Below are positions 30,073 through 49,037 of a stretch of 49,037 nt of DNA, one piece after another (the first letter of the stretch is position 1; each line of letters opens with the position of its first letter). The notes beneath the pieces are model-generated. The model was not told where the DNA came from and ran no database searches. It saw only the letters and a program-made list of their open reading frames with translations. Source of the stretch: Candidatus Uhrbacteria bacterium (GTDB lineage Bacteria; Patescibacteriota; Patescibacteriia; JACQRZ01); the NCBI GenBank assembly GCA_023246955.1, contig JAHFHK010000003.1, forward strand, positions 1 to 49,037. The letters run 5' to 3'. The position numbers and the translations under genes were made by a program.

Positions 30073-32046
30073 ATGTACGATAATAATCCTGACATTACCG
30101 TATTCGCAGAAACGAACTACCGCACGATGCGGCGACGTTTTGGTATCAAGCGAGATGATCGCCGCCGCCACATGTATGTAGTGGGAAAGACCGGTATGGG
30201 GAAGTCGACACTGCTCGAAAACATGATCATCGATGATATCCGTGAAGGACATGGCGTAGGGGTAGTAGATCCTCACGGAGACTTGGCGGAAAAGATTCTT
30301 AAGTTCATTCCGCCAGAACGTATCAACGACATTGTGTATGTGAACCCCGCCGATTTTGAATATCCGGTAGCCTTTAATATTCTCGAGAACGCCAACCCAC
30401 AATACAAGCACCTCATCGCGTCAGGGCTGATGGGAGTTTTCAAAAAGATCTGGCCAGACGTATGGAGCGCACGTATGGAATATATCCTCAACAATACGCT
30501 TCTTGCACTCCTCGACTATCCAGGGACGACGATGCTTGCGGTGAACCGTATGCTTTCAGACAAGGCATTTCGCACCAAGGTCGTTGAGCGCGTCCAGGAC
30601 CCAGTCGTAAAATCGTTTTGGGTGGATGAATTCGCCAAATATAATGACAAGTTTGCCTCAGAAGCAATCGCCCCTATCCAAAACAAAGTCGGGCAATTCC
30701 TTTCCGCATCCGTGATTCGTAATATCATCGGACAAGTGAAGTCCACGATCAATATTCGTGAATGCATGGACACAGGGAAGATCATCATCATGAATCTTTC
30801 AAAAGGGCGCGTGGGAGAGGATAACGCACGTCTACTCGGCGGTATGTTGATCACAAAGATCCAGCTCTCAGCGATGGAGCGCGTGGACATGCCGGAATCA
30901 GAACGTCGTGATTTCTACCTCTATGTCGACGAGTTTCAAAATTTTGCAACAGAAAGTTTTGCAACAATTCTTTCTGAAGCCCGTAAATATCGTCTATCGC
31001 TCGTGGTAGCGCACCAGTACATAGAACAGCTCGATGAAAAAGTAGCCGCAGCTATCTTCGGAAACGTAGGCACTATGGTGGTATACCGCGTGGGAGCAGC
31101 CGATGCAGACTATCTCGTCAAAGAATTCACGCCACGATTCATCGAAGAGGACCTTGTTAATATTCCAAAATTTAGCTTCTACCTAAAACTAATGATCGAC
31201 GGCGTAGCATCAGAGCCATTTTCCGCCAAGTGTCTCCCTCCGCTCAGCCCAGAAGAAGATACACATAACGAAGAAAAGGTCATTCGCTCCAGCCGTGAAC
31301 GCTATGCAATGCCACGCCTTGAAGTAGAAGAAAAGATCGCACGATGGTCATCGTCTTTGGACGAATCCGCAAAGGAAGCAGCGGATAGCGCTCCATCAAA
31401 AAAGAAAGCAGTTAACCAAGAGATGCCATCTCCCGATCGCCCCTACGAAGCCAAATGTGTGCGATGCGGAAAAACAATTTATTTGAACTTTCAACCCGAC
31501 GGCGTACGCCCAGTGTATGACAGCGACTGTTTTAAGATAGTAAAAGATGAGCGAGAGGCAAAGTTGGCAGGAGGCACAATGCCTGCCTCTCCGGCACCCA
31601 CTCCCGTCTCAACGCCCCCTCCCTTTGTGGCAGTAACGCCCCCCCCTCCCGTGGCACCTGCACCGATACCCATCCCTGCTGTACCCCCCGCAACACCGCC
31701 TCGTGTATCACCGAACCCTGCTGCTGCTTCGCAACCGAGACCATCAGAACGTCCACATTCGGCAATACCATCACCAAGACCGCCGTATATACCACGTGAA
31801 AGGCCCGTATCCCCATCACGCGATACTCGCCCCTCGCAAGAAAGACGAAGCACAGGAACTCCGCAGCGCCCCACCTCCCCAGCCACTCACAGCCGTCCTC
31901 TGCGCCCTCCCGTATCGGCTGCTCCACACCCCGTAGAAACAAAGCCGACGATTCCCGCGCAGACGTTCTCCCTGAAAGATCTCGCAGACAAGAAGCCGAC
32001 CCGATTCCGCGAAAAGGAAAGCGGTGGTGACGGCCCGAAACCATAG
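30073..32046 (+). CDS. P-loop NTPase of the TraD/VirD4/TrwB (type IV coupling protein)-like or HerA-like class, with a C-terminal zinc-ribbon-like motif and a proline-rich tail
   Basis: Walker A VVGKTGMGKST, Walker B FYLYVDEFQNF, SLVVAHQYIEQL, CVRCGK...RPVYDSDC, and about 160 aa of P/S/T/A-rich sequence. Confidence 0.7.
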   Translation: MYDNNPDITVFAETNYRTMRRRFGIKRDDRRRHMYVVGKTGMGKSTLLENMIIDDIREGHGVGVVDPHGDLAEKILKFIPPERINDIVYVNPADFEYPVAFNILENANPQYKHLIASGLMGVFKKIWPDVWSARMEYILNNTLLALLDYPGTTMLAVNRMLSDKAFRTKVVERVQDPVVKSFWVDEFAKYNDKFASEAIAPIQNKVGQFLSASVIRNIIGQVKSTINIRECMDTGKIIIMNLSKGRVGEDNARLLGGMLITKIQLSAMERVDMPESERRDFYLYVDEFQNFATESFATILSEARKYRLSLVVAHQYIEQLDEKVAAAIFGNVGTMVVYRVGAADADYLVKEFTPRFIEEDLVNIPKFSFYLKLMIDGVASEPFSAKCLPPLSPEEDTHNEEKVIRSSRERYAMPRLEVEEKIARWSSSLDESAKEAADSAPSKKKAVNQEMPSPDRPYEAKCVRCGKTIYLNFQPDGVRPVYDSDCFKIVKDEREAKLAGGTMPASPAPTPVSTPPPFVAVTPPPPVAPAPIPIPAVPPATPPRVSPNPAAASQPRPSERPHSAIPSPRPPYIPRERPVSPSRDTRPSQERRSTGTPQRPTSPATHSRPLRPPVSAAPHPVETKPTIPAQTFSLKDLADKKPTRFREKESGGDGPKP

Positions 32047-32070
32047 GCTCCTCATTCCCTACCCGCAAGA

Positions 32071-32226
32071 GACCTCTGAAAAAGTGATGTATTTTCATTG
32101 AATGGGCTGTTGAGCTCCAGGAAACGTATACAAATGTATGTTTCCGCCAGTAGGCGGATCCGCCATCTGGCGGAGAGTGGAGTCAACGGGTGCCCATGAA
32201 ATGAAAAGACGCGATTTTACAGAGGT
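32071..32226. repeat. Structured palindromic element, copy A (candidate ncRNA or MITE-like repeat)
   Basis: Terminal inverted ends GACCTCTGAAAA / TTTTACAGAGGT with nested stems. Homologous to 45565-45687, with compensatory stem substitutions. Confidence 0.6.
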
Positions 32227-41534: not shown

Positions 41535-43298
41535 ATGATGACATCAGGTGATATCCGACAAAAATTCGTAGCATATTTTCAAAAACAAGGACACGCAGTA
41601 GTCCCATCTTCGTCACTCCTTCCTGACGACCCATCGGTGCTACTCACCACCGCAGGAATGCAGCAATTCAAAAAATACTACACCGGCGAAGCAGACGCCA
41701 TGAAAGATTTTTCGTCAAAGAGTACGGCGTCCATCCAAAAATGCTTCCGTACTTCCGACATCGACGAGGTAGGGGACGAGACGCATCTCACATTTTTTGA
41801 AATGGTAGGAAACTTTTCTTTTGGAGGATATTTCAAAGAACCCGCAATCCGGTACGCATTCGAATTCATCACCCAAGAAATCGGACTCACGATTAAGTAT
41901 GTGACAATCTTCGAAGGATCGCACGGTGTGCCAAAGGATGAGGCATCAGCGACAGTATGGAAACAGCTGGGCGTTTCCGATATCCGCGAAGAGGGGATAG
42001 GGGACGTATTCTGGGGACCTACGGGCACCGAAGGACCTTGCGGACCATCGACCGAAATATATTGCACGAACACCAACGGACAGGACGTAGAAATTTGGAA
42101 CATTGTATTCAATGAATACTATTGCAGTGGATCACGCGAAGAGCTCATCGAGCAGAAAGAGGGCGTGACGCTCAAACCTCTCGAAACTCCTGGCATCGAC
42201 ACGGGGATGGGACTCGAGCGCCTCTGTATGATCGCGCAAGATGCAAAGAATCTTTTTGAAACCGATCTATTCACCCCGCTCATCGCACTACTTCCAGAGT
42301 CGCTCGACGTACGTATCAAGCGCATCATCGCCGATCATGGACGTGCGACAGCCATGCTCATCGCCGACGGAGTACGCCCTAGTAACAAGGGGGCAGGATA
42401 TATCCTTCGCCGCCTCATGCGCCGCGCCATGGTATACGAACATCAGCACGCCCTCTCTCCCGAGATCATGAAGCAAGTCCTCGCCACCGTCATCGCGAAC
42501 TACAGCGCCCACTATCCCGAACTTACGAGCGAAGAGTCAGTAATCATGCAGGTATTCCAGGCAGAATACGACAAGTTCACAAAAACGTTGCAGCGCGGTG
42601 TTCGAGAACTCGAAAAAGTCGCATTCCTCGATGCAGCCTCCTCGTTCAAACTGTACGAGAGTTTTGGGCTGCCCTACGAAATCATCAAAGAAATGGGAGG
42701 AACACGTGCGGACGATCTGACGCGCGAAGATTTTGAAGAAGAATTCCGCAAGCATCAGGAAATCTCTCGCCAAGGACAAGAAAAGAAATTCGGTGGCCAC
42801 GGACTCATCCTCGACACAGGAGAGCTGAAGGCGGGCACCGAAGAAGAGCTCGCCATCGTCACACGCCTTCACACCGCCACCCATCTTCTCCAGCAGGCAC
42901 TGCGCGAAACACTCGGCAACGAAATACACCAGATGGGATCAGACATCACCGCCGAGCGACTACGTTTTGACTTTAACTTTGACCGCAAGATGACCGATGA
43001 GGAAATCACCAAAGTCGAAAAGCGCGTCAACGAATGGAGTATGATGCACCTCCCCATGCAATATCAGGAGATGCCCCTCGAAGAAGCCAAGACAACCGGC
43101 GCCCTCTACTTTTTCAAAGAAAAGTACCCCGAAACCGTAAAAGTATACTTCGCCGGCCAGAGCCTCGAATCAGCCGTCAGCAAAGAGTTCTGCGGAGGCC
43201 CCCACGTCGACAACACCGCAAGAGTCGGCATCTTCCACATCGTCAAAGAAGAATCCTGTGGTGCAGGAGTGAGACGTATCAGGGCTACAGTGGAATAG
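41535..43298 (+). CDS. alaS: Alanine--tRNA ligase, short form (catalytic, tRNA-recognition and editing regions; no C-Ala domain)
   Basis: IRQKFVAYFQKQGH, TTAGMQQFK, FEMVGNFSFGGYFK, and editing motifs HTATHLL / CGGPHV. Only 587 aa. Confidence 0.9.
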   Translation: MMTSGDIRQKFVAYFQKQGHAVVPSSSLLPDDPSVLLTTAGMQQFKKYYTGEADAMKDFSSKSTASIQKCFRTSDIDEVGDETHLTFFEMVGNFSFGGYFKEPAIRYAFEFITQEIGLTIKYVTIFEGSHGVPKDEASATVWKQLGVSDIREEGIGDVFWGPTGTEGPCGPSTEIYCTNTNGQDVEIWNIVFNEYYCSGSREELIEQKEGVTLKPLETPGIDTGMGLERLCMIAQDAKNLFETDLFTPLIALLPESLDVRIKRIIADHGRATAMLIADGVRPSNKGAGYILRRLMRRAMVYEHQHALSPEIMKQVLATVIANYSAHYPELTSEESVIMQVFQAEYDKFTKTLQRGVRELEKVAFLDAASSFKLYESFGLPYEIIKEMGGTRADDLTREDFEEEFRKHQEISRQGQEKKFGGHGLILDTGELKAGTEEELAIVTRLHTATHLLQQALRETLGNEIHQMGSDITAERLRFDFNFDRKMTDEEITKVEKRVNEWSMMHLPMQYQEMPLEEAKTTGALYFFKEKYPETVKVYFAGQSLESAVSKEFCGGPHVDNTARVGIFHIVKEESCGAGVRRIRATVE

Positions 43299-43302
43299 AC
43301 CC

Positions 43303-43331
43303 TTGACGCCCCATCCCATCCATGCTAGTAT
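43303..43331 (+). promoter_or_regulatory. Sigma-70-type promoter (TTGACG-N17-TAGTAT, with TGC extended -10) for DGR target 1
   Basis: Same TGCTAGTAT -10 block as the promoter of target 2 at 47169-47197. Confidence 0.6.
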
Positions 43332-43381
43332 CTGCGCAAAGATAGTTCCTTCAAAAATCAAAAGAAAGCGAGAGAATAATC

Positions 43382-44449
43382 ATGAATATTCAAGGAAGGC
43401 ACCCCTCAGGACCTCCATTCAAAATGGAGCCAAAGGTAGAAGAGCTCATTAACGCCATGATAGCATTCTGCGAGCAACCACTGCCGGAAGAAGATCCCGC
43501 TACCACAAGTCCAGTGGAGACCATGGTACCTACTGGCACAGCACTGGATCTTCCGGAACCTCCAAAAGGCGCGATGCCCCTCCCCGCAACAACTCCAGTA
43601 ACGACGGTACTATTTCCCGCCCCCGCTATATATTTCCCCCCGGCGCCAAAACCAGGAAATATATCATTAGACGAGGCTGCCGATCATACTCAGTACCAGC
43701 AGTTCTATACAGAACTCAAGACGCTTTTTGGCACAGGCTTCTGTGGTATCGACGAGGTAACCCGTGCGTTCACTACTCAAAATGGGGTTCTGCCAGGGAA
43801 CACCATGGCATCCTTCCACGAACGACTCCATGGAGCCACTCTCAAGGCCCTCTGGGATAACTGCCAAAAACCAGACATCGCCGCATTCCTTTCCAAGATA
43901 AAAGCTGGAGAAGTAAACGCAAGCGACTGGCTCCTCATCCTCAGGATACCATTCCTAAAGAAGCCAAATGAGGAGAAAGAAATCCCGCTCACCATGAAAG
44001 CCCTCCAGGAGCACATCGCTCCCGATATGCTCAAGTGTGAGCAAGGGAAGCTTCTTTATGAGGTAAGCTGGTATCCACAGGAAGTTTTCTATGCCACTCA
44101 GGCGATATCTAGCTTCCATTGGCAATTTGTCACCAAGGCATGTACTCCAGGAACCAAAGGCGTGAATCACGATGCGCAAGCTACCGCACTGAACGCCTAT
44201 GCTCAAAAAGTAGGTCTCGACCCTGCGCTAACCCGCAGACGCATCCCTGTCGAAGTACCCTACGATCATCTCGTGACACTCCGTGCACACAACATGCGCC
44301 TCCTCGTCAATGAGTACGATTGGACGGATACGCGTGCGTCTGATGGCGGCTGCGTGTTCGTCGGTGATGGTGATGCGTACGGGCTCGGCGTGTTCAGGCG
44401 CTCCGCCGACGTCTCGGACGGTGATCGGGGTGCGTGCCTCTCCCGCTGA
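43382..44449 (+). CDS. DGR variable (target) protein 1, with a C-terminal VR-bearing domain
   Basis: The C-terminal 38 codons are VR1. The last roughly 230 aa are paralogous to target 2 (LFG..FCGID.VTRAFT, WLLILRIPFLK, LTMKALQEH.APDM, HWQFVTKAC). Confidence 0.85.
   Translation: MNIQGRHPSGPPFKMEPKVEELINAMIAFCEQPLPEEDPATTSPVETMVPTGTALDLPEPPKGAMPLPATTPVTTVLFPAPAIYFPPAPKPGNISLDEAADHTQYQQFYTELKTLFGTGFCGIDEVTRAFTTQNGVLPGNTMASFHERLHGATLKALWDNCQKPDIAAFLSKIKAGEVNASDWLLILRIPFLKKPNEEKEIPLTMKALQEHIAPDMLKCEQGKLLYEVSWYPQEVFYATQAISSFHWQFVTKACTPGTKGVNHDAQATALNAYAQKVGLDPALTRRRIPVEVPYDHLVTLRAHNMRLLVNEYDWTDTRASDGGCVFVGDGDAYGLGVFRRSADVSDGDRGACLSR
44332..44445 (+). repeat. DGR variable repeat VR1
   Basis: 114-nt alignment to the TR (45389-45502). 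There are 20 mismatches, 19 of them at TR adenines. The 3' 18 nt are identical. Confidence 0.85.
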
Positions 44450-44578
44450 TGTTGACACTGTCCTGCTGGACCCTTGACCGCCCCTGGCGGCCTGACCACC
44501 AGCGAGCCAGCTGGTGGATTGGACTCCTGACTGTCCCCTGAATTCCTTCAGTGTACCGACCCCGTCGGTGCACCTCCC

Positions 44579-44610
44579 GAGCCCTTTCGAATGAAAGGGC
44601 TCTTTTTTAT
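44579..44610 (+). terminator. Rho-independent terminator (repeated module GAGCCCTTTCGAATGAAAGGGCTC + T6)
   Basis: Perfect 10-bp stem followed by a T-run. An identical copy is at 48609-48640 and a variant at 47084-47110. Confidence 0.8.
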
Positions 44611-44689
44611 ACCACGCGTCGAATTGGTGAATGTTTTCTTGAAAACAATCTGTCATCGTGGTAGTATCAATAATAATAATGGTTGCAAT

Positions 44690-44935
44690 ATGAAAAAATC
44701 ATCAAAAATTTACCACTTTTCCGTTGTCATAGAGCGTGATGAAGATGGCATGTACGTCGGCACTGTGCCTGCTCTACGCTCATGCTACACGCAGGCAAAA
44801 ACTATACCAGTATTGTACGAGCGTCTTGAAGAAGTTGTGGCTCTGTGTCTAGAAGTTGAGAAGGACATTTTCAAAGATCACATTACGCAAAACCAGTTGG
44901 TAGGAGTGCAGCAATTAGATTTTAAAATGGCATAG
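44690..44935 (+). CDS. hicB: HicB-family antitoxin (UPF0150-type)
   Basis: YHFSVVIERDEDGMYVGTVPALRSCYTQAKTIPVLYERLEEVVALCLE matches the HicB N-terminal fold pattern. A promoter-like TTGAAA-N17-TAGTAT lies upstream. Confidence 0.75.
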   Translation: MKKSSKIYHFSVVIERDEDGMYVGTVPALRSCYTQAKTIPVLYERLEEVVALCLEVEKDIFKDHITQNQLVGVQQLDFKMA

Positions 44936-44939
44936 CAGT

Positions 44940-45173
44940 ATGCCACCGCTACACCTCGTATCAGGAAAGAGGCTACTAAAGATGATGAAGGAGCTTGATT
45001 TTGAAGTTATCCGCGTTCGTGGGAGCCATCATTTTCTTAGTCGAATGTCTGACGGAAAAACAACGGTGGTATCTATTCATGGTAATGACGAGATAAGCAG
45101 AGGTCTTCTTCGCACTATCCTGAGAGACATAGAAATTTCTGTAGAGGAATATGAAAAACTGCGTGTGATGTAA
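44940..45173 (+). CDS. hicA: HicA-family mRNA interferase toxin
   Basis: SGKRLLKMMKELDFEVIRVRGSHHFL...VVSIHGNDEISRGLLRTILRD (YcfA/HicA pattern). Confidence 0.8.
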   Translation: MPPLHLVSGKRLLKMMKELDFEVIRVRGSHHFLSRMSDGKTTVVSIHGNDEISRGLLRTILRDIEISVEEYEKLRVM

Positions 45174-45276
45174 GTCGCATAAGCACCATAAACTATCCCT
45201 TGAACCTCCTCGGCGCTATACTAAATGAATGATGGTTTATAGAATCACCACATCCTGTGGACTGGTTTACCGTCAT

Positions 45277-45312
45277 GATACGATTGTCAACACTGCTTCG
45301 TATCGTTTTTTT
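45277..45312 (+). terminator. Rho-independent terminator after hicBA
   Basis: Stem GATACGA/TCGTATC followed by GTTTTTTT. Confidence 0.6.
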
Positions 45313-45388
45313 CTCAGGCGAGGGGGTCAAGGAAGATTAACATCCAGCAAACCCATCTCGCCACGAATACGGATGCGCGATATGAAGG

Positions 45389-45502
45389 ACGTACGTCTAA
45401 TGGCAACTTCGTGAACGTCGGTAATGGTGATGCGAACGGGCTCAACGTGAACAGGAACTCCGCCGACGACTCGAACGGTAATCAGGGTGCGTGCCTCTCC
45501 CG
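45389..45502 (+). repeat. DGR template repeat (TR)
   Basis: Non-coding copy of the VR sequence, rich in AAC/AAT triplets. 22 of its 27 adenines are substituted in VR1 and/or VR2. Homology to the VRs ends at CTCCCG and then diverges (IMH* versus IMH). Confidence 0.85.
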
Positions 45503-45524
45503 AAGTGTCGACAACGATCGTAGG

Positions 45525-45556
45525 GAGTCCTTCTTCATACGGAGGACTCTTTTTTC
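45525..45556 (+). terminator. Terminator-like hairpin directly 3' of the TR
   Basis: Stem GAGTCC/GGACTC followed by TTTTTT. Confidence 0.5.
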
Positions 45557-45564
45557 ATGGAAAA

Positions 45565-45687
45565 GACCTCTGAAAAATTGATGGATTTTCATTGAATGGG
45601 CTATCGAATCCAGGGAACGTATGGATAATACGTTGAGTGGATTCGATGGGTGCCCGTGAAATGAAAAGGCGCGATTTTGCAGGGGTC
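45565..45687. repeat. Structured palindromic element, copy B (candidate ncRNA), lying between the TR and the avd 3' end
   Basis: Homologous to 32071-32226, with compensatory changes (ATCGAATCC/GGATTCGAT versus GTTGA(G)CTCC/GGAGTCAAC). Confidence 0.6.
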
Positions 45688-45689
45688 GT

Positions 45690-46040
45690 CTATATCGAAC
45701 GGATCCATCCACCGAGCATTCTGCCAACCTCGTCGAGCTCTTCTTCGAGATCAAGATACGTTTTCTCGGGGATAATACGGAGACGGGCACTCAGCCGAAT
45801 CAAGATCTTCACCTCATCGAGGCGTGGACTCACCTGTATGAGCTGAAAACGAGCCTGCTCTCGGCTCAAATACTGCGCGCGCATAATGACGGTAAGAAGT
45901 TCGAGCAATGAATCAGAGACTTTGTGTGCTATGGTATAGCGGTCACTTTTCGGAAATTTTTTTGCATAGATATGCCACCGACAAAAGAAATCAAACAAAC
46001 GCGAGAAAAGGACAGTGTTCCGTTGGGGGGGGGTAGACAT
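45690..46040 (-). CDS. avd: Avd-like four-helix-bundle protein (DGR accessory variability determinant; 23S rRNA IVS protein family)
   Basis: YAKKFPKSDRYTIAHKVSDSLLELL...RLDEVKILIRLS...LDLEEELDEVGRMLGGWI matches the four-helix-bundle family pattern. It is adjacent to the TR and RT. Confidence 0.7.
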   Translation of the reverse strand: MSTPPQRNTVLFSRLFDFFCRWHIYAKKFPKSDRYTIAHKVSDSLLELLTVIMRAQYLSREQARFQLIQVSPRLDEVKILIRLSARLRIIPEKTYLDLEEELDEVGRMLGGWIRSI

Positions 46041-47042
46041 AGTACCTTATTTGAAAAAATAATAAGCCTCGCAAACCTCTATGCTGCGTGGCGAGAATTT
46101 GAAAGAGGAAAACGCAATCGCCCAGACGTGCAAGAATTCGCATACGATATCGAGAAAAATATCTTCGATCTTCGCGCACGACTCGTATCGCAACAATGGA
46201 CGCACGACCAGTATACAATGTTTCATGTCTGCGATCCAAAACCGCGCATAGTCCACAAAGCGACCGTAAGCAATCGAATCGTACACCACGCTATCGTTCG
46301 TCACATCGAACCCCTATTCGAACGGTCTTTCATCTTTGATACCTGGTCATGCAGGACAGGAAAGGGGACGCATGCAGCGATGCTCCGTGCGCATGAGAAA
46401 TTAAGAGAACTCTCCCAAAAAACCAAAGGAGAGATATGGGTCCTGCAATGCGACATCAAAAAATATTTTCAATCCGTCGATCACGATATACTGACACGCA
46501 TACTTCAAAAAAATATCATCGACACAGAGACGCTCACGCTCCTGCGAAATATCATCGATAGTTTCTCGCCCGGCATCCCTCTAGGGAATCTCACATCACA
46601 GCTCTTCGCAAACATCTACCTCAACCCCTTCGATCACTTCGTCAAAGAAATCCTGCGCCCCGCATCCTACATTCGCTATTGCGATGACTTCTTCCTCACA
46701 CATCCCTCCCGGGAATATCTAGTGAATTGCTACCGCCAAATCGACACATTCCTCAAGACCCGCCTTCACCTTACCCTCCATCCGAATAAAATCCACCTCC
46801 ACCCATTCCGCTACGGCATAGATTTCCTCGGTCACGTACTGTACCCCGACGGAAGGAGACTACGCCACGTTTCTCGAAAACGTATGCAGCGACGAGTCCA
46901 GGAGGCGGTCAACGAGTTGAGCACAGGAAAACGCTCGTATGCATCTACATGCGCAATCATCGCCTCGTATAAGGGCATGGTGCAGTACGCCTCATCTCAT
47001 TACGACGACGAGCTCCTCGATCTGCTAAAACAATGCCTATAA
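45972..47042 (+). CDS. DGR-type reverse transcriptase
   Basis: RT motifs DPKPRIVHKA, QCDIKKYFQSVDH, IPLGNLTSQLFANIYLNPFDH (the DGR-typical LGxxxSQ) and YIRYCDDFFL. About 356 aa, with no maturase or endonuclease domains. Start is uncertain (GTG 45924, ATG 45972, TTG 46023). Confidence 0.88.
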   Translation: MPPTKEIKQTREKDSVPLGGGRHSTLFEKIISLANLYAAWREFERGKRNRPDVQEFAYDIEKNIFDLRARLVSQQWTHDQYTMFHVCDPKPRIVHKATVSNRIVHHAIVRHIEPLFERSFIFDTWSCRTGKGTHAAMLRAHEKLRELSQKTKGEIWVLQCDIKKYFQSVDHDILTRILQKNIIDTETLTLLRNIIDSFSPGIPLGNLTSQLFANIYLNPFDHFVKEILRPASYIRYCDDFFLTHPSREYLVNCYRQIDTFLKTRLHLTLHPNKIHLHPFRYGIDFLGHVLYPDGRRLRHVSRKRMQRRVQEAVNELSTGKRSYASTCAIIASYKGMVQYASSHYDDELLDLLKQCL

Positions 47043-47083
47043 CCACCCTACCAAACTACGTCGATCCCGTTGGAGCCCTCCCC

Positions 47084-47110
47084 GAGCCCTCTTAAATGAA
47101 AGGGCTCTTT
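47084..47110 (+). terminator. Terminator-like hairpin after the RT (variant of the repeated GAGCCC...GGGCTC module)
   Basis: Stem GAGCCCT/AGGGCTC with a short T-run. Confidence 0.5.
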
Positions 47111-47168
47111 ACGCACGCTATGCAAGAGCGACTTCCCAAAAAACCCAAAAATATAACCAAAACTGACC

Positions 47169-47197
47169 TTGACAACCACACATATCTCTGCTAGTAT
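47169..47197 (+). promoter_or_regulatory. Sigma-70-type promoter (TTGACA-N17-TAGTAT, with TGC extended -10) for DGR target 2
   Basis: The TTG start of track ORF 47169 is the -35 hexamer itself. The real start is ATG 47238. Confidence 0.6.
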
Positions 47198-47237
47198 CGG
47201 GACAAGTATATCGTTCATTGAAAGGAAAACACAACTC

Positions 47238-48443
47238 ATGAGTGAACAGACGGAAAAAACATTACGCGAGTATGCCCCGCTCATACTCCGAACATTTCAT
47301 AACGAATACGGACGGAGCGGAGCATACCCCATCTTTCACCTCACACAGAACGCAGAAGCCACGGCATTCGTGGCGGGTGGGAACACGAGTAACTGGCAAG
47401 AAGGAATGCGTTCAGTCGGTGTTGCACTGTATCATAGCGTGCGGGGAGTGTCAGAACACACAGACCCCAGCTACGCGATCAACCCTTATCCACCACTCGA
47501 AGGAACACTAGGGGAGATCATCAACGAATTAGTAGACGATCGAGTATCTATTGATACGCTGGATCGCCTCCTCGCAGGTCTACAGAGACCTCAACCCAGC
47601 ATAACGTTAATTCCGACAAACCTACCGAGCAACGGCCCATTGGTGATTATCGTACCAGATCCACCGAAGCCAAGCGCAATAGAAGAACAAGCGAGACACT
47701 ATGAATCACTCCGCACACTCTTTGGCGCTAACTTCTGCGGTATCGATGGAGTAACCCGTGCATTCACATTGAACGACGGTACCACATTAGCATCCTATCC
47801 GGATGCGTACCGTGTATCTATCCTGAAAGCGCTCTGGGACAAATGCCAAGAGCCCGACGTAGCAAAGTTCCTCTCTCATATTAAAGAGGGAAAGGTAAGT
47901 GCAAGTGGTTGGCTCCTCATACTCCGAATACCGTTCCTGAAACGGGCAGGCAAAGATATTCCGCTCACCATGAAAGCGCTTCAAGAGCATGTCGCTCCCG
48001 ACATGATAGCGCACAGCCAAGGAAAATTGTTTTGTTCGGCTGCAGACAGTAACTGTTGGTATACAAACAACGAAGTATTCTACGATACCGAGTCGATACC
48101 ATCATGTCATTGGCAATTCGTAACAAAAGCGTGCGTCGAAGGGACAAAAGGTAAAAAACACGGGCAACAAACAACGGTACTCAATAAGTGTGCCAAAACA
48201 GTAGGATTCGATCCTACCCTCGTCCGCAGGCGCAGGCCAGTGGAAATACCATACGACCACGCCATAATGCTGCGAGAACATAATGTACGTCTTCTCGAAG
48301 GTGAATGGGATTGCACGGACACAATGCGTGCGTCTGATGGCCTCTTCGTGAGCGTCGGTTATGGTGATGCGTACGGGCTCGACGTGAGCAGGCTCTCCGC
48401 CGGCGGCTCGGGCGGTGGTCAGGGTGCGTGCCTCTCCCGCTGA
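47238..48443 (+). CDS. DGR variable (target) protein 2
   Basis: The C-terminal codons are VR2. It is paralogous to target 1 over the C-terminal region of about 230 aa and has a different N-terminal region. Confidence 0.85.
   Translation: MSEQTEKTLREYAPLILRTFHNEYGRSGAYPIFHLTQNAEATAFVAGGNTSNWQEGMRSVGVALYHSVRGVSEHTDPSYAINPYPPLEGTLGEIINELVDDRVSIDTLDRLLAGLQRPQPSITLIPTNLPSNGPLVIIVPDPPKPSAIEEQARHYESLRTLFGANFCGIDGVTRAFTLNDGTTLASYPDAYRVSILKALWDKCQEPDVAKFLSHIKEGKVSASGWLLILRIPFLKRAGKDIPLTMKALQEHVAPDMIAHSQGKLFCSAADSNCWYTNNEVFYDTESIPSCHWQFVTKACVEGTKGKKHGQQTTVLNKCAKTVGFDPTLVRRRRPVEIPYDHAIMLREHNVRLLEGEWDCTDTMRASDGLFVSVGYGDAYGLDVSRLSAGGSGGGQGACLSR
48326..48439 (+). repeat. DGR variable repeat VR2
   Basis: 114-nt alignment to the TR shows 18 mismatches, all at TR adenines. 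Confidence 0.85.
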
Positions 48444-48608
48444 TGTTGACACTGTCCTGCTGGTCTCTTAACCGCCCCTGGCGGCCTGACCACCAGTTCG
48501 ACTGGTGGATTGGACTCCTGACTGCCCCCTGAATTTACTCAGTGCGCTAGCATAGTCGGCGTACTCCGATTTCAATGAGTGTCGCTGGCTGTATCGGCGC
48601 GCCCCTCC

Positions 48609-48640
48609 GAGCCCTTTCGAATGAAAGGGCTCTTTTTTAT
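48609..48640 (+). terminator. Rho-independent terminator (identical copy of 44579-44610)
   Basis: GAGCCCTTTCGAATGAAAGGGCTC followed by TTTTTT. Confidence 0.8.
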
Positions 48641-48678
48641 ACCCCAAAACGAGCCAAAACCCACGCCCCCGCTGGCTA

Positions 48679-48707
48679 TTGACAAAACTGTATTTTCCTG
48701 CAAGAAT
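48679..48707 (+). promoter_or_regulatory. Sigma-70-type promoter (TTGACA-N17-AAGAAT, with TGC upstream)
   Basis: Lies upstream of the GGGAGG RBS and ATG 48754. Confidence 0.5.
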
Positions 48708-48753
48708 AGGGACATATTCGTTATTTGAAAATTTTAATATTGGGAGGTGGCCT

Positions 48754-49037
48754 ATGAGCCATATTTCGCAGAGCACATCAAAGATCACTGCGGTAGATAC
48801 AGACACGTTAGCAGCAACGCTGCGATACGTAGCAAAGCTGCAAAACGTCGAAATGACCGATTACATCAAGAACTATAACGGTGGCACACAAAAAGAGTGG
48901 AAGGGAAATAAAGTCCTCGGCGCCCTCATCGCCAAAGATGTCCCCCGCGGTATCGGCGTCAGCGTCGATAGTAACGGAAAGATGATCTTCATCGGCGACG
49001 ACTACGGCTATACAACCGGCTACGCAAAACTCAAAAC
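48754..49037 (+). CDS. Hypothetical protein, 3' end outside the window (possibly DUF1257/Ycf35-like)
   Basis: My own translation gives MSHISQSTSKITAVDTDTLAATLRYVAKLQ...GIGVSVDSNGKMIFIGDDYGY, open to the window end. The MSH-x-S start and the late GxxxxxDDYG pattern recall DUF1257. This is a weak call. Confidence 0.5.
   Translation, partial: MSHISQSTSKITAVDTDTLAATLRYVAKLQNVEMTDYIKNYNGGTQKEWKGNKVLGALIAKDVPRGIGVSVDSNGKMIFIGDDYGYTTGYAKLK

What the first reader, a model, noticed from the sequence alone, without database searches (positions are those of the whole stretch)
44579..47110. Unusual DGR core layout: avd inverted and overlapping the RT 5' end, a G9 homopolymer in the overlap, and terminators isolating the TR
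In characterised DGRs such as the Bordetella phage BPP-1 element, avd, TR and RT are co-oriented and the TR-spacer RNA is made with the RT message. Here the order is TR (+), terminator-like hairpin (45525-45556), a structured element (45565-45687), avd on the minus strand (45690-46040), then the RT on the plus strand. With its only in-frame ATG (45972) the RT overlaps the avd start by about 69 nt in a head-to-head arrangement. Even the TTG at 46023 overlaps by 18 nt. A run of nine G (46025-46033) lies in this overlap, coding PP in Avd and GGG in the RT N-terminus. A one-base slip there would shift the frame of both proteins at once. The TR is bracketed by a hicBA terminator upstream (45277-45312) and its own hairpin downstream, and I could not find a convincing promoter in 45313-45388. 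How the TR RNA is made and delivered to the RT is therefore unclear.
Basis: partly seen in the sequence, partly recalled or inferred. Interest (0 to 1): 0.62.

Follow-up and report, generated by a model that had tools for sequence, protein, structure and literature searches.

The report
Slippery G-run switch in a DGR
A bacterial "targeted mutation machine" (a diversity-generating retroelement) has a slippage-prone run of nine G's in the overlapping starts of its two enzyme genes, so a one-base length change would silence both; the inverted gene layout is normal for this bacterial group.

Summary
All the reported features are at the stated coordinates. The layout TR(+)-avd(-)-RT(+) is not unusual: it is the published "B3" architecture, reported for 90% of CPR DGRs. 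I found avd opposite to the RT in 98 of 99 related loci.

The G9 tract (46025-46033) is the notable part.
- It is the longest G/C run in the 986-kb genome.
- A G8-G13 run sits at the same junction in 68 of 99 related elements. Five others carry (GA)n or (TG)n there.
- In three related elements assembled from several samples, the tract length is the only indel in 1.8-4 kb (G9/G12, G11/G12, G9/G10).
- Here G9 is in frame for both Avd and RT. Any length that is not G9 modulo 3 truncates both.

I read it as a slipped-strand on/off switch, currently ON. No reads could be checked for this genome.

The "structured element" is one of about 33 copies of a genome-specific hairpin repeat inserted between TR and avd. 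The hairpin plus U-run after the TR is a clade norm. The supposed upstream "hicBA terminator" overlaps helix P1 of a covarying RNA leader. The TR is therefore probably a self-contained structured RNA gene. Its promoter remains unidentified.

The parts
44332..44445 (+). VR1, at the 3' end of target gene 43382-44449
   Evidence: 20 differences from the TR, 19 of them at TR adenines.
44579..44608 (+). Intrinsic-terminator-like hairpin plus T6 after target gene 1
   Evidence: Found by the scanner. Folds at -18.1 kcal/mol, z = -5.0. A comparable hairpin follows the VR in 43 of 80 relatives.
44690..45173 (+). hicB (44690-44935) and hicA (44940-45173), inserted between target 1 and the TR. A promoter-like site lies at 44639-44667.
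   Evidence: Pfam HicA_toxin, E 2.2e-15; HicB_lk_antitox is weak. Promoter-like TTGAAA-17-TAGTAT.
45292..45387 (+). Putative 5' leader of the TR RNA: ACTG, P1 5' strand (45296-45306), inner hairpin (45317-45327 with 45351-45362), P1 3' strand (45377-45387).
   Evidence: The 11-bp helix CTTCGTATCGT/GCGATATGAAG sits where P1 sits in 15 subfamily relatives (9 of 1000 shuffles reach it) and is part of the MFE fold. The main-family leader covaries strongly. Model R1 does not score this copy.
45389..45502 (+). Template repeat (TR), 27 adenines in 114 nt; its 3' end (GGGTGCGTGCCTCTCCCG) is shared with both VRs
45522..45555 (+). Hairpin plus U6 directly after the TR (terminator-like 3' end of the TR RNA)
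   Evidence: Folds at -15.9 kcal/mol. A hairpin plus T-run follows the TR in 60 of 81 relatives, against 3.8% of control windows.
45564..45687 (+). Copy of a dispersed 124-nt palindromic (REPIN/MITE-like) repeat inserted between the TR terminator and the avd stop
   Evidence: 33 full and 36 total copies in the own genome, none in 15 other genomes of the family. The TR-avd gap is 187 nt here against a median of about 19 nt in 81 relatives.
45690..46040 (-). avd (116 aa), start ATG at 46040
   Evidence: Pfam bAvd, E 4.5e-18, residues 11-115. The ATG is in frame with the body only at G9 modulo 3.
46025..46033 (.). G9:C9 homopolymer in the dual-coding overlap; proposed slipped-strand switch, here in the ON register for both genes
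   Evidence: Length polymorphism was seen in three related elements.
46023..47042 (+). DGR reverse transcriptase. TTG 46023 is the likely start (339 aa); ATG 45972 is the alternative (356 aa).
   Evidence: RVT_1. LGNLTSQ and YCDD motifs. The TTG gives the same N-terminal length as the ATG starts of relatives. AAAGGA lies 12 nt upstream, as before target gene 2.
47084..47110 (+). Terminator-like hairpin after the RT, a third copy of the module found after both target genes
   Evidence: Repeat family D3 and inverted repeats I2/I3.
48326..48439 (+). VR2, at the 3' end of target gene 47238-48443
   Evidence: 18 differences from the TR, all at TR adenines.

Best explanation
This is an intact, recently active DGR of the CPR-typical B3 type, TR-(avd)-RT. 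It has two target genes. A hicBA pair and a small hairpin repeat have been inserted into the cassette.

The two enzyme genes start head to head and overlap by at least 18 nt. The G9:C9 tract lies in that overlap and is read as Gly-Gly-Gly in the RT and Pro-Pro in Avd.

I infer that replication slippage changes the tract length at high frequency. Only lengths equal to 9 modulo 3 give both proteins, so the tract acts as a heritable, reversible on/off switch for targeted hypermutation. This genome is in the ON state.

The TR is probably made as a separate structured RNA. It would comprise a 5' leader closed by helix P1, the TR itself and a 3' hairpin with a U-run. It would meet the RT-Avd complex in trans rather than being made as part of the RT message.

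Shown: the anatomy, the frames, the conservation of the tract, its polymorphism in relatives, and leader covariation in relatives.
Inferred: the switching rate and its effect in this genome, the RT start codon, the ends of the TR RNA and its promoter.
For: DGR identity
- bAvd and RVT_1 hits.
- 37 of 38 TR/VR mismatches lie at TR adenines.

Layout is the clade norm
- Wu et al. describe architecture B3.
- avd is opposite to the RT in 98 of 99 loci.
- The TR lies upstream of the avd 3' end in 81 of 81 loci.

The tract
- It is the longest G/C run in the genome, and the second DGR junction holds one of the seven 8-runs.
- A G8-G13 run sits at the same junction in 68 of 99 loci whose RTs are only 40-55% identical. 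Five others carry (GA)n or (TG)n at that spot. This argues for 'any slippery repeat' rather than a sequence or protein motif.
- The avd body frame is open through the tract in 68 of 68 loci, but only 32 of 68 have an in-frame start upstream of it.

Direct polymorphism in otherwise near-identical assemblies
- G12 against G9, with 0 mismatches in 1760 nt.
- G12 against G11, with 1 mismatch in 1787 nt; avd is in frame against out of frame.
- G9 against G10, with 1-5 mismatches in 4048 nt. This element reads both genes through the tract, as the window does. The G10 assemblies lose the Avd gene call, and their RT call is cut from 353 to 260 aa.

This window
- An in-silico slip of one or two bases in either direction truncates both proteins.

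TR unit
- A hairpin plus T-run follows the TR in 60 of 81 loci, against 3.8% of controls.
- The leader's three-way junction is 95.3% paired, against 30-49% in slid controls. It has 191 double-change cells, against 21-57.
- The leader model hits 67 of 100 loci, once each, just upstream of the TR.
- The window has an 11-bp P1 at the homologous place.
Against: - No read-level or multi-sample data exist for this genome. Switching of this particular tract is therefore untested.
- Assembly length calls at G9-G12 can be wrong.
- About half or more of the species representatives look 'OFF' for avd. That could instead mean the frame is corrected at the RNA or ribosome level.
- The RT start is inferred. 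A non-canonical start downstream of the tract would uncouple the RT from it.
- Promoters for avd, RT and the TR RNA were not found.
- The main-family leader model does not score the window's leader. Its P1 rests on one helix without close relatives.
Confidence: 0.6

Rival explanations
1. The tract works mainly at the RNA or translation level. RNA polymerase slips on the C/G run, or ribosomes shift +1 on CCC-C. A fixed fraction of Avd (and RT) is then made whatever the DNA length, which sets a low dose or a ratio. DNA length variation would be a by-product.
For: In 36 of 68 tract-bearing loci the avd body frame has no in-frame start upstream of the tract, yet the ORFs are otherwise intact. The nearest upstream ATG is offset by +1 in 33 of 67 loci, against 17 and 17 for the other two frames, which hints at a preferred +1 correction.
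Against: All three frame offsets occur, so no single recoding rule fits. (GA)n and (TG)n repeats replace the G-run in five loci. DNA-level length variants are seen directly. Transcriptional slippage is best documented for A/T runs (my own knowledge).
Confidence: 0.2
2. The tract is a cis element of the divergent avd/RT control region, such as promoter spacing, 5'-UTR structure or reiterative initiation. Its length would tune transcription rather than the reading frame.
For: In 31 of 68 loci the RT start lies downstream of the tract, so there it sits in the RT 5' region. A promoter-like match begins right after the tract (46034-46063).
Against: The tract lies inside the open avd body frame in 68 of 68 loci. 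In this window it is inside both ORFs. The promoter-like site would start transcription inside the conserved RT N-terminus. The region has no notable fold (z = 0.23).
Confidence: 0.08
3. The tract has no regulatory role. It is a by-product of dual coding (Pro-Pro in Avd opposite Gly-Gly in the RT, in the same codon register, forces CCC/GGG). Length differences between assemblies would be neutral or errors.
For: In this window the two frames are in exact antisense register, where Pro opposite Gly does force G-only codons.
Against: Pure G runs persist in the 31 loci where the RT does not read the tract. Lengths of 8-13 do not fit a fixed peptide motif. Dinucleotide repeats substitute at the same spot. 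Many assemblies are out of frame.
Confidence: 0.05

Closest known systems
CPR/DPANN DGRs of cassette architecture B3, TR-(avd)-RT (Wu et al. 2018, NAR 46:11, PMC5758913; Paul et al. 2017, not readable here)
   Same: The order and orientation of TR, avd and RT are the same. The host is a roughly 1-Mb CPR-type genome. Target genes carry C-terminal VRs with adenine-specific changes.
   Different: The paper text I could read does not mention a homopolymer at the avd/RT junction, overlapping starts or a structured TR leader. This copy also carries hicBA and a hairpin-repeat insertion inside the cassette.
Bordetella phage BPP-1 DGR (mtd-avd-TR-brt; DGR RNA = avd 3' end + TR + 140-nt spacer)
   Same: It uses the same protein parts (Avd, RT) and the same TR-to-VR adenine mutagenesis. 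The TR and VR share a GC-rich 3' end, and hairpins lie downstream of the VR.
   Different: Here avd is inverted. In relatives only 6-50 nt separate the TR from the avd stop, so there is no room for a BPP-1-like spacer on that side. The conserved structured RNA lies 5' of the TR. No Rfam family matched at E <= 1.
Intragenic poly-G/poly-C contingency loci of Campylobacter jejuni, Neisseria and Haemophilus (slipped-strand phase variation)
   Same: A G/C run of 8-13 lies just after the start codon. Length varies between otherwise identical sequences. Frame decides ON or OFF.
   Different: One tract gates two divergent, overlapping genes at once. What is switched is a targeted hypermutation machine rather than a surface structure. 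The host is an uncultured CPR bacterium, and no rate has been measured.
REPIN/MITE-like palindromic repeats
   Same: The element at 45564-45687 is a 124-nt near-perfect hairpin. It has about 33 dispersed copies on both strands and is specific to this genome.
   Different: I did not look for an associated RAYT-type transposase. Covarying terminal stems suggest selection on the hairpin itself.

Membership tests
Diversity-generating retroelement (DGR) | Reverse transcriptase of DGR type (RVT_1 domain with the [I/L]GxxxSQ and YxDD motifs) | tested here: met
   RVT_1, E 1.9e-19. LGNLTSQ and YCDD are present in the translation. Assigning these motifs to DGR RTs rests on my own knowledge.
Diversity-generating retroelement (DGR) | TR/VR repeat pair whose differences fall on TR adenines | tested here: met
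   19 of 20 (VR1) and 18 of 18 (VR2) differences fall on TR adenines.
Diversity-generating retroelement (DGR) | Accessory variability determinant (Avd) | tested here: met
   Pfam bAvd PF22296, 66 bits against a cut-off of 40.
Diversity-generating retroelement (DGR) | Mutagenic retrohoming actually takes place | not testable with these tools
   Only the adenine-specific VR divergence is seen. No time series or reads were available.
Architecture B3, TR-(avd)-RT (Wu et al. 2018) | The TR is upstream of an avd gene on the opposite strand, followed by the RT on the TR strand | tested here: met
   for the window. The definition is in PMC5758913. 81 of 81 relatives with a TR share it.
Simple-sequence-repeat contingency locus (phase variation) | Repeat long enough to slip, placed in the 5' coding region so that its length sets the frame | tested here: met
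   G9 is the longest G/C run in the genome. Only G9 modulo 3 gives full-length proteins.
Simple-sequence-repeat contingency locus (phase variation) | Length polymorphism among otherwise identical sequences | tested here: inconclusive
It is met in three related elements: G9/G12, G11/G12 and G9/G10.
Simple-sequence-repeat contingency locus (phase variation) | High-rate, reversible switching with a change in phenotype | not testable with these tools
   This needs culture, a reporter or deep-read data.
BPP-1-type DGR RNA (avd end - TR - spacer; Rfam families) | Match to a curated RNA family, or a spacer-like structured segment 3' of the TR | tested here: not met
   No Rfam match at E <= 1 in 43000-49037 apart from a chance sRNA hit elsewhere. 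The structured segment 3' of the TR is a dispersed repeat.
CPR DGR TR-leader RNA (three-way junction defined here, model R1) | P1 long-range helix plus two hairpins directly 5' of the TR | tested here: inconclusive
   R1 gives no hit upstream of the window's TR. An 11-bp P1 and one inner hairpin lie at the homologous place. The window belongs to a divergent 'ACTGCTT' subfamily.
REPIN/MITE-like repeat | Many dispersed copies of a short palindromic element | tested here: met
   33 copies of at least 100 nt at 80-93% identity on both strands. None in 15 other genomes of the family.
REPIN/MITE-like repeat | Cognate transposase (RAYT or other) in the genome | not tested
   I did not search for one.

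The most novel reading that the evidence does not exclude
Most inverted-avd DGRs of CPR bacteria may carry a second, independent hypermutation device. A slippery repeat in the 5' end of avd, often shared with the RT, would turn targeted hypermutation on and off heritably and reversibly. In this window a single tract is read codon for codon on both strands, so one slip switches both enzymes together. The template would be supplied by a separate RNA gene whose protein-docking scaffold lies 5' of the TR, which is permuted relative to the Bordetella phage paradigm.
Probability: 0.5. Interest if true: 0.78.

Novelty: new variant of a known kind. Interest (0 to 1): 0.64.

Why it matters
DGRs are the most powerful natural protein diversifiers known, and they are being turned into directed-evolution tools. 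How cells restrain them is largely unknown.

A conserved slippery tract that gates Avd, and here the RT as well, would be a simple and testable control layer: only a subpopulation mutates its targets at any time. It would also explain why gene callers truncate or miss avd and RT in CPR genomes. The source's own RT call here is 304 aa.

The covarying leader 5' of the TR gives a concrete RNA to test for RT-Avd binding in the most common DGR type in nature, for which no RNA model has been published as far as I could find.

Tried and rejected
- Near-identical copies of this element: scans of genome contigs and metagenome contigs with the RT gave mostly cyanobacterial and other distant DGRs, best 46-53% identity. 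An exact look-up of HicA found nothing. The protein search found no relative above 55% identity.
- Exact look-ups with RT proteins that contain the tract return only one tract length by construction. I discarded them as biased and replaced them with a look-up through a neighbouring Mur-ligase gene.
- No pairs with near-identical flanks exist among the 72 tract-bearing (G run >=6) species representatives.
- Promoters: the consensus scan found none for the TR, avd or RT. Reading alignments by eye for -35/-10 boxes gave no consistent answer, so I make no promoter claim.
- Model R1 of the main-family leader does not detect the window's leader. A MAFFT alignment of the divergent subfamily misaligned the 3' strand, so P1 was checked by a direct helix search with shuffles.
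- Rfam: no family matches the TR RNA or the hairpin repeat.
- Paul et al. 2017 (Nat Microbiol) could not be read. No held paper links DGRs with repeat-mediated phase variation. The one paper holding 'poly-G', 'avd' and 'DGR' uses them in unrelated contexts.
- I considered and rejected the idea that the TR-avd structured element is a BPP-1-like spacer, because it is a dispersed repeat that is absent from relatives' cassettes.
Full report
**What is there**

The region holds a complete DGR.
- The RT ORF (open from 45924, stop at 47042, plus strand) matches RVT_1. It carries LGNLTSQ and YCDD.
- The 116-aa ORF at 45690-46040 on the minus strand matches Pfam bAvd at 66 bits.
- The TR (45389-45502) pairs with VR1 (44332-44445) and VR2 (48326-48439) at the 3' ends of two paralogous target genes. 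37 of 38 differences lie on TR adenines.
- hicB and hicA sit between target 1 and the TR.

**The layout is the clade norm, and is published**

The genome is about 1 Mb in 60 contigs. RT relatives carry names such as Uhrbacteria, Falkowbacteria and Patescibacteria, so this is a CPR bacterium.

Wu et al. (PMC5758913) define architecture B3 as TR-(avd)-RT. [quoted passage not shown]

In 21 loci from relatives, and then in 101 loci from species of the same class:
- avd lies on the strand opposite to the RT in 98 of 99 loci with an avd hit;
- the TR lies upstream of the avd 3' end, on the RT strand, in 81 of 81 loci where a TR could be found.

"Unusual" therefore holds only in comparison with phage BPP-1.

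**The G9 tract**

G9 (46025-46033) is the only G/C run of 9 or more in the 986-kb genome. Of the seven 8-runs, one sits at the avd/RT junction of the genome's second DGR on contig 40.

Across 99 related loci whose RTs share only 40-55% identity, a G8-G13 run occupies the same junction in 68. Four more have G6-7. Five carry (GA)n or (TG)n at that spot. A repeat of any kind at one position points to slippage as the selected property, rather than a peptide or a specific nucleic-acid motif.

In the 68 loci with G8 or longer:
- the avd body frame is open through the tract in all 68;
- only 32 have an in-frame start upstream of it;
- the nearest upstream ATG is in frame in 17, offset by one in 33 and offset by two in 17.

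The RT has an in-frame start downstream of the tract in 31 of the 68. In the other 37 it would have to be read through the tract, although 11 of those have no in-frame start in the assembled register.

**Direct length polymorphism**

No near-identical copy of this window exists in the collections. Three related elements were assembled from several samples.

| Element | Tract lengths | Other differences |
|---|---|---|
| A, 54% RT identity to the window | G12 vs G9 | none in 1760 nt |
| B, 53% RT identity | G12 vs G11 | 1 mismatch in 1787 nt |
| C, found through a neighbouring Mur-ligase gene to avoid ascertainment bias | G9 in three assemblies, G10 in two | 1-5 mismatches in 4048 nt |

- In element B the avd ATG is in frame at G12 and out of frame at G11. 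A third contig of this element ends inside the tract.
- Element C reads both genes through the tract, as the window does. The G10 assemblies lose the Avd gene call, and their RT call drops from 353 to 260 aa.
- In all three elements the tract is the only indel.

**State of this window**

With G9, the avd ATG (46040) and the RT TTG (46023) or ATG (45972) are all in frame. The two frames are in exact antisense codon register. G7, G8, G10 and G11 each truncate Avd to 15-37 aa and the RT to 3-30 aa.

TTG 46023 is the likely RT start.
- It gives the same distance to the conserved LFxxIxSLxNL motif as the ATG starts of relatives.
- It has AAAGGA 12 nt upstream, as does target gene 2.

The nearest relatives have an RT ATG just after the tract. 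Here that codon reads AGT.

The source's own gene call for the RT is 304 aa. That omits the conserved N-terminus, which is a typical annotation casualty of this arrangement.

**The TR unit**

- *Downstream hairpin.* The hairpin plus U6 after the TR (45522-45555, -15.9 kcal/mol) is a clade feature. 60 of 81 relatives have a hairpin plus T-run within about 45 nt of the TR end, against 3.8% of control windows. It often embraces the avd stop codon.
- *Inserted repeat.* The TR-avd gap is 187 nt here against a median of about 19 nt. The excess is the "structured element" at 45564-45687. This is one of 33 full copies of a 124-nt hairpin repeat with covarying terminal stems, and it is absent from 15 other genomes of the family. 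It is an insertion, not a DGR spacer.
- *Upstream leader in relatives.* Relatives share a leader directly 5' of the TR: a long-range helix P1 enclosing two hairpins. In 32 sequences 95.3% of cells pair, against 30-49% when partners are slid. 191 cells carry double changes, against 21-57. A model built from it hits 67 of 100 loci, once each, at that place.
- *Upstream leader in the window.* The model does not score the window, which belongs to a divergent "ACTGCTT" subfamily. The window does have an 11-bp P1 (45296-45306 with 45377-45387) at the homologous position (9 of 1000 shuffles), and the MFE fold uses it.
The TR RNA therefore probably begins upstream of 45292.
- *Promoter.* The promoter is unidentified. 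Read-through from the hicBA promoter (44639-44667) is possible. In 43 of 80 relatives a terminator-like hairpin follows the target gene ahead of the leader, which fits a separate TR transcription unit.

**Interpretation and limits**

The best-supported reading has three parts:
- a standard CPR DGR;
- enzyme genes gated by a hypermutable tract, here in the ON register;
- a template supplied by a self-contained structured RNA.

The main rival is that the frame is corrected at the RNA or ribosome level. That would explain why so many assemblies look OFF.

Earlier AI notes of this scan describe the same tract in many other genomes, the hairpin repeat in this genome and a 5' scaffold in CPR DGR RNAs. 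I reached the tract conservation before reading them and re-tested each point on my own data. They are not independent evidence.

I found no paper that links DGRs with repeat-mediated switching. Paul et al. 2017 could not be read.

Noticed in passing
window 45564-45687; also 32070-32226; genome contigs C29, C40, C41, C15 and others: A 124-nt near-perfect hairpin repeat (ends AGACCTCTGAAAAAT...ATTTTGCAGGGGTCTC). It has 33 full copies in this 986-kb genome, compensatory changes in the terminal stem, no copies in 15 other genomes of the family and no Rfam match.
   Followed up: partly
window 46128-47042 (source gene call, protein P0001): The collection's own gene call for the RT is 304 aa. It starts at an internal GTG and omits the conserved N-terminal LFEKIISLANLYAAWREF segment, probably because the true start overlaps avd.
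   Followed up: partly
own genome C40:17758-18744 (L021), tract at C40:18739-18746: The second DGR of the same genome has a G8 at its avd/RT junction. The nearest ATGs of both avd and RT are out of frame with their bodies, and a 7-run would bring both into frame. An in-frame GTG for the RT lies 13 nt upstream.
   Followed up: partly
relatives L201, L226, L232, L234, L250 (avd/RT junction): (GA)6-14 or (TG)7 dinucleotide repeats occupy the position where most relatives have the G-run.
   Followed up: partly
relatives, for example L011, L016, L200, L224, L245 (10-40 nt after the TR): A sequence-conserved hairpin, CTCTCC-loop-GGGAGAG followed by TTTTGTTTT, overlaps the last codons of avd on the other strand. 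It has covarying inner pairs. It may be more than a terminator, for example an RT-Avd recognition element.
   Followed up: no
window 44557-44605, 47062-47110, 48587-48635: The same roughly 49-nt terminator module (GAGCCCTTTCGAATGAAAGGGCTC plus a T-run) follows target 1, the RT and target 2.
   Followed up: no
window 44446-44553 and 48440-48544: About 105 nt downstream of both VRs are conserved (89-91% identity) and contain hairpins (CCGCCCCTGGCGG; CCACCAG...CTGGTGG). These are candidate target-recognition elements next to the IMH.
   Followed up: no
window 44690-45173: A hicBA pair with its own promoter-like site lies inside the cassette. It makes the VR1-TR distance 1057 nt, against about 440-500 nt in relatives.
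   Followed up: no
relatives L002-L004, L190-L192, L203, L208, L210, L212 (13-17 nt upstream of ACTGCTT); window 45264-45271 (GGTTTACC): A conserved box, GATAGCG(A/G)TTTGCC, lies upstream of the TR leader in the window's subfamily. Its function is unknown; it could be a promoter element or part of the RNA.
   Followed up: no
window 31639-31646 (C8) and six other G/C 8-runs in the genome (C3, C28, C38, C55, C59): These are other long G/C homopolymers that could be further slippage-prone sites. I did not examine their context.
   Followed up: no
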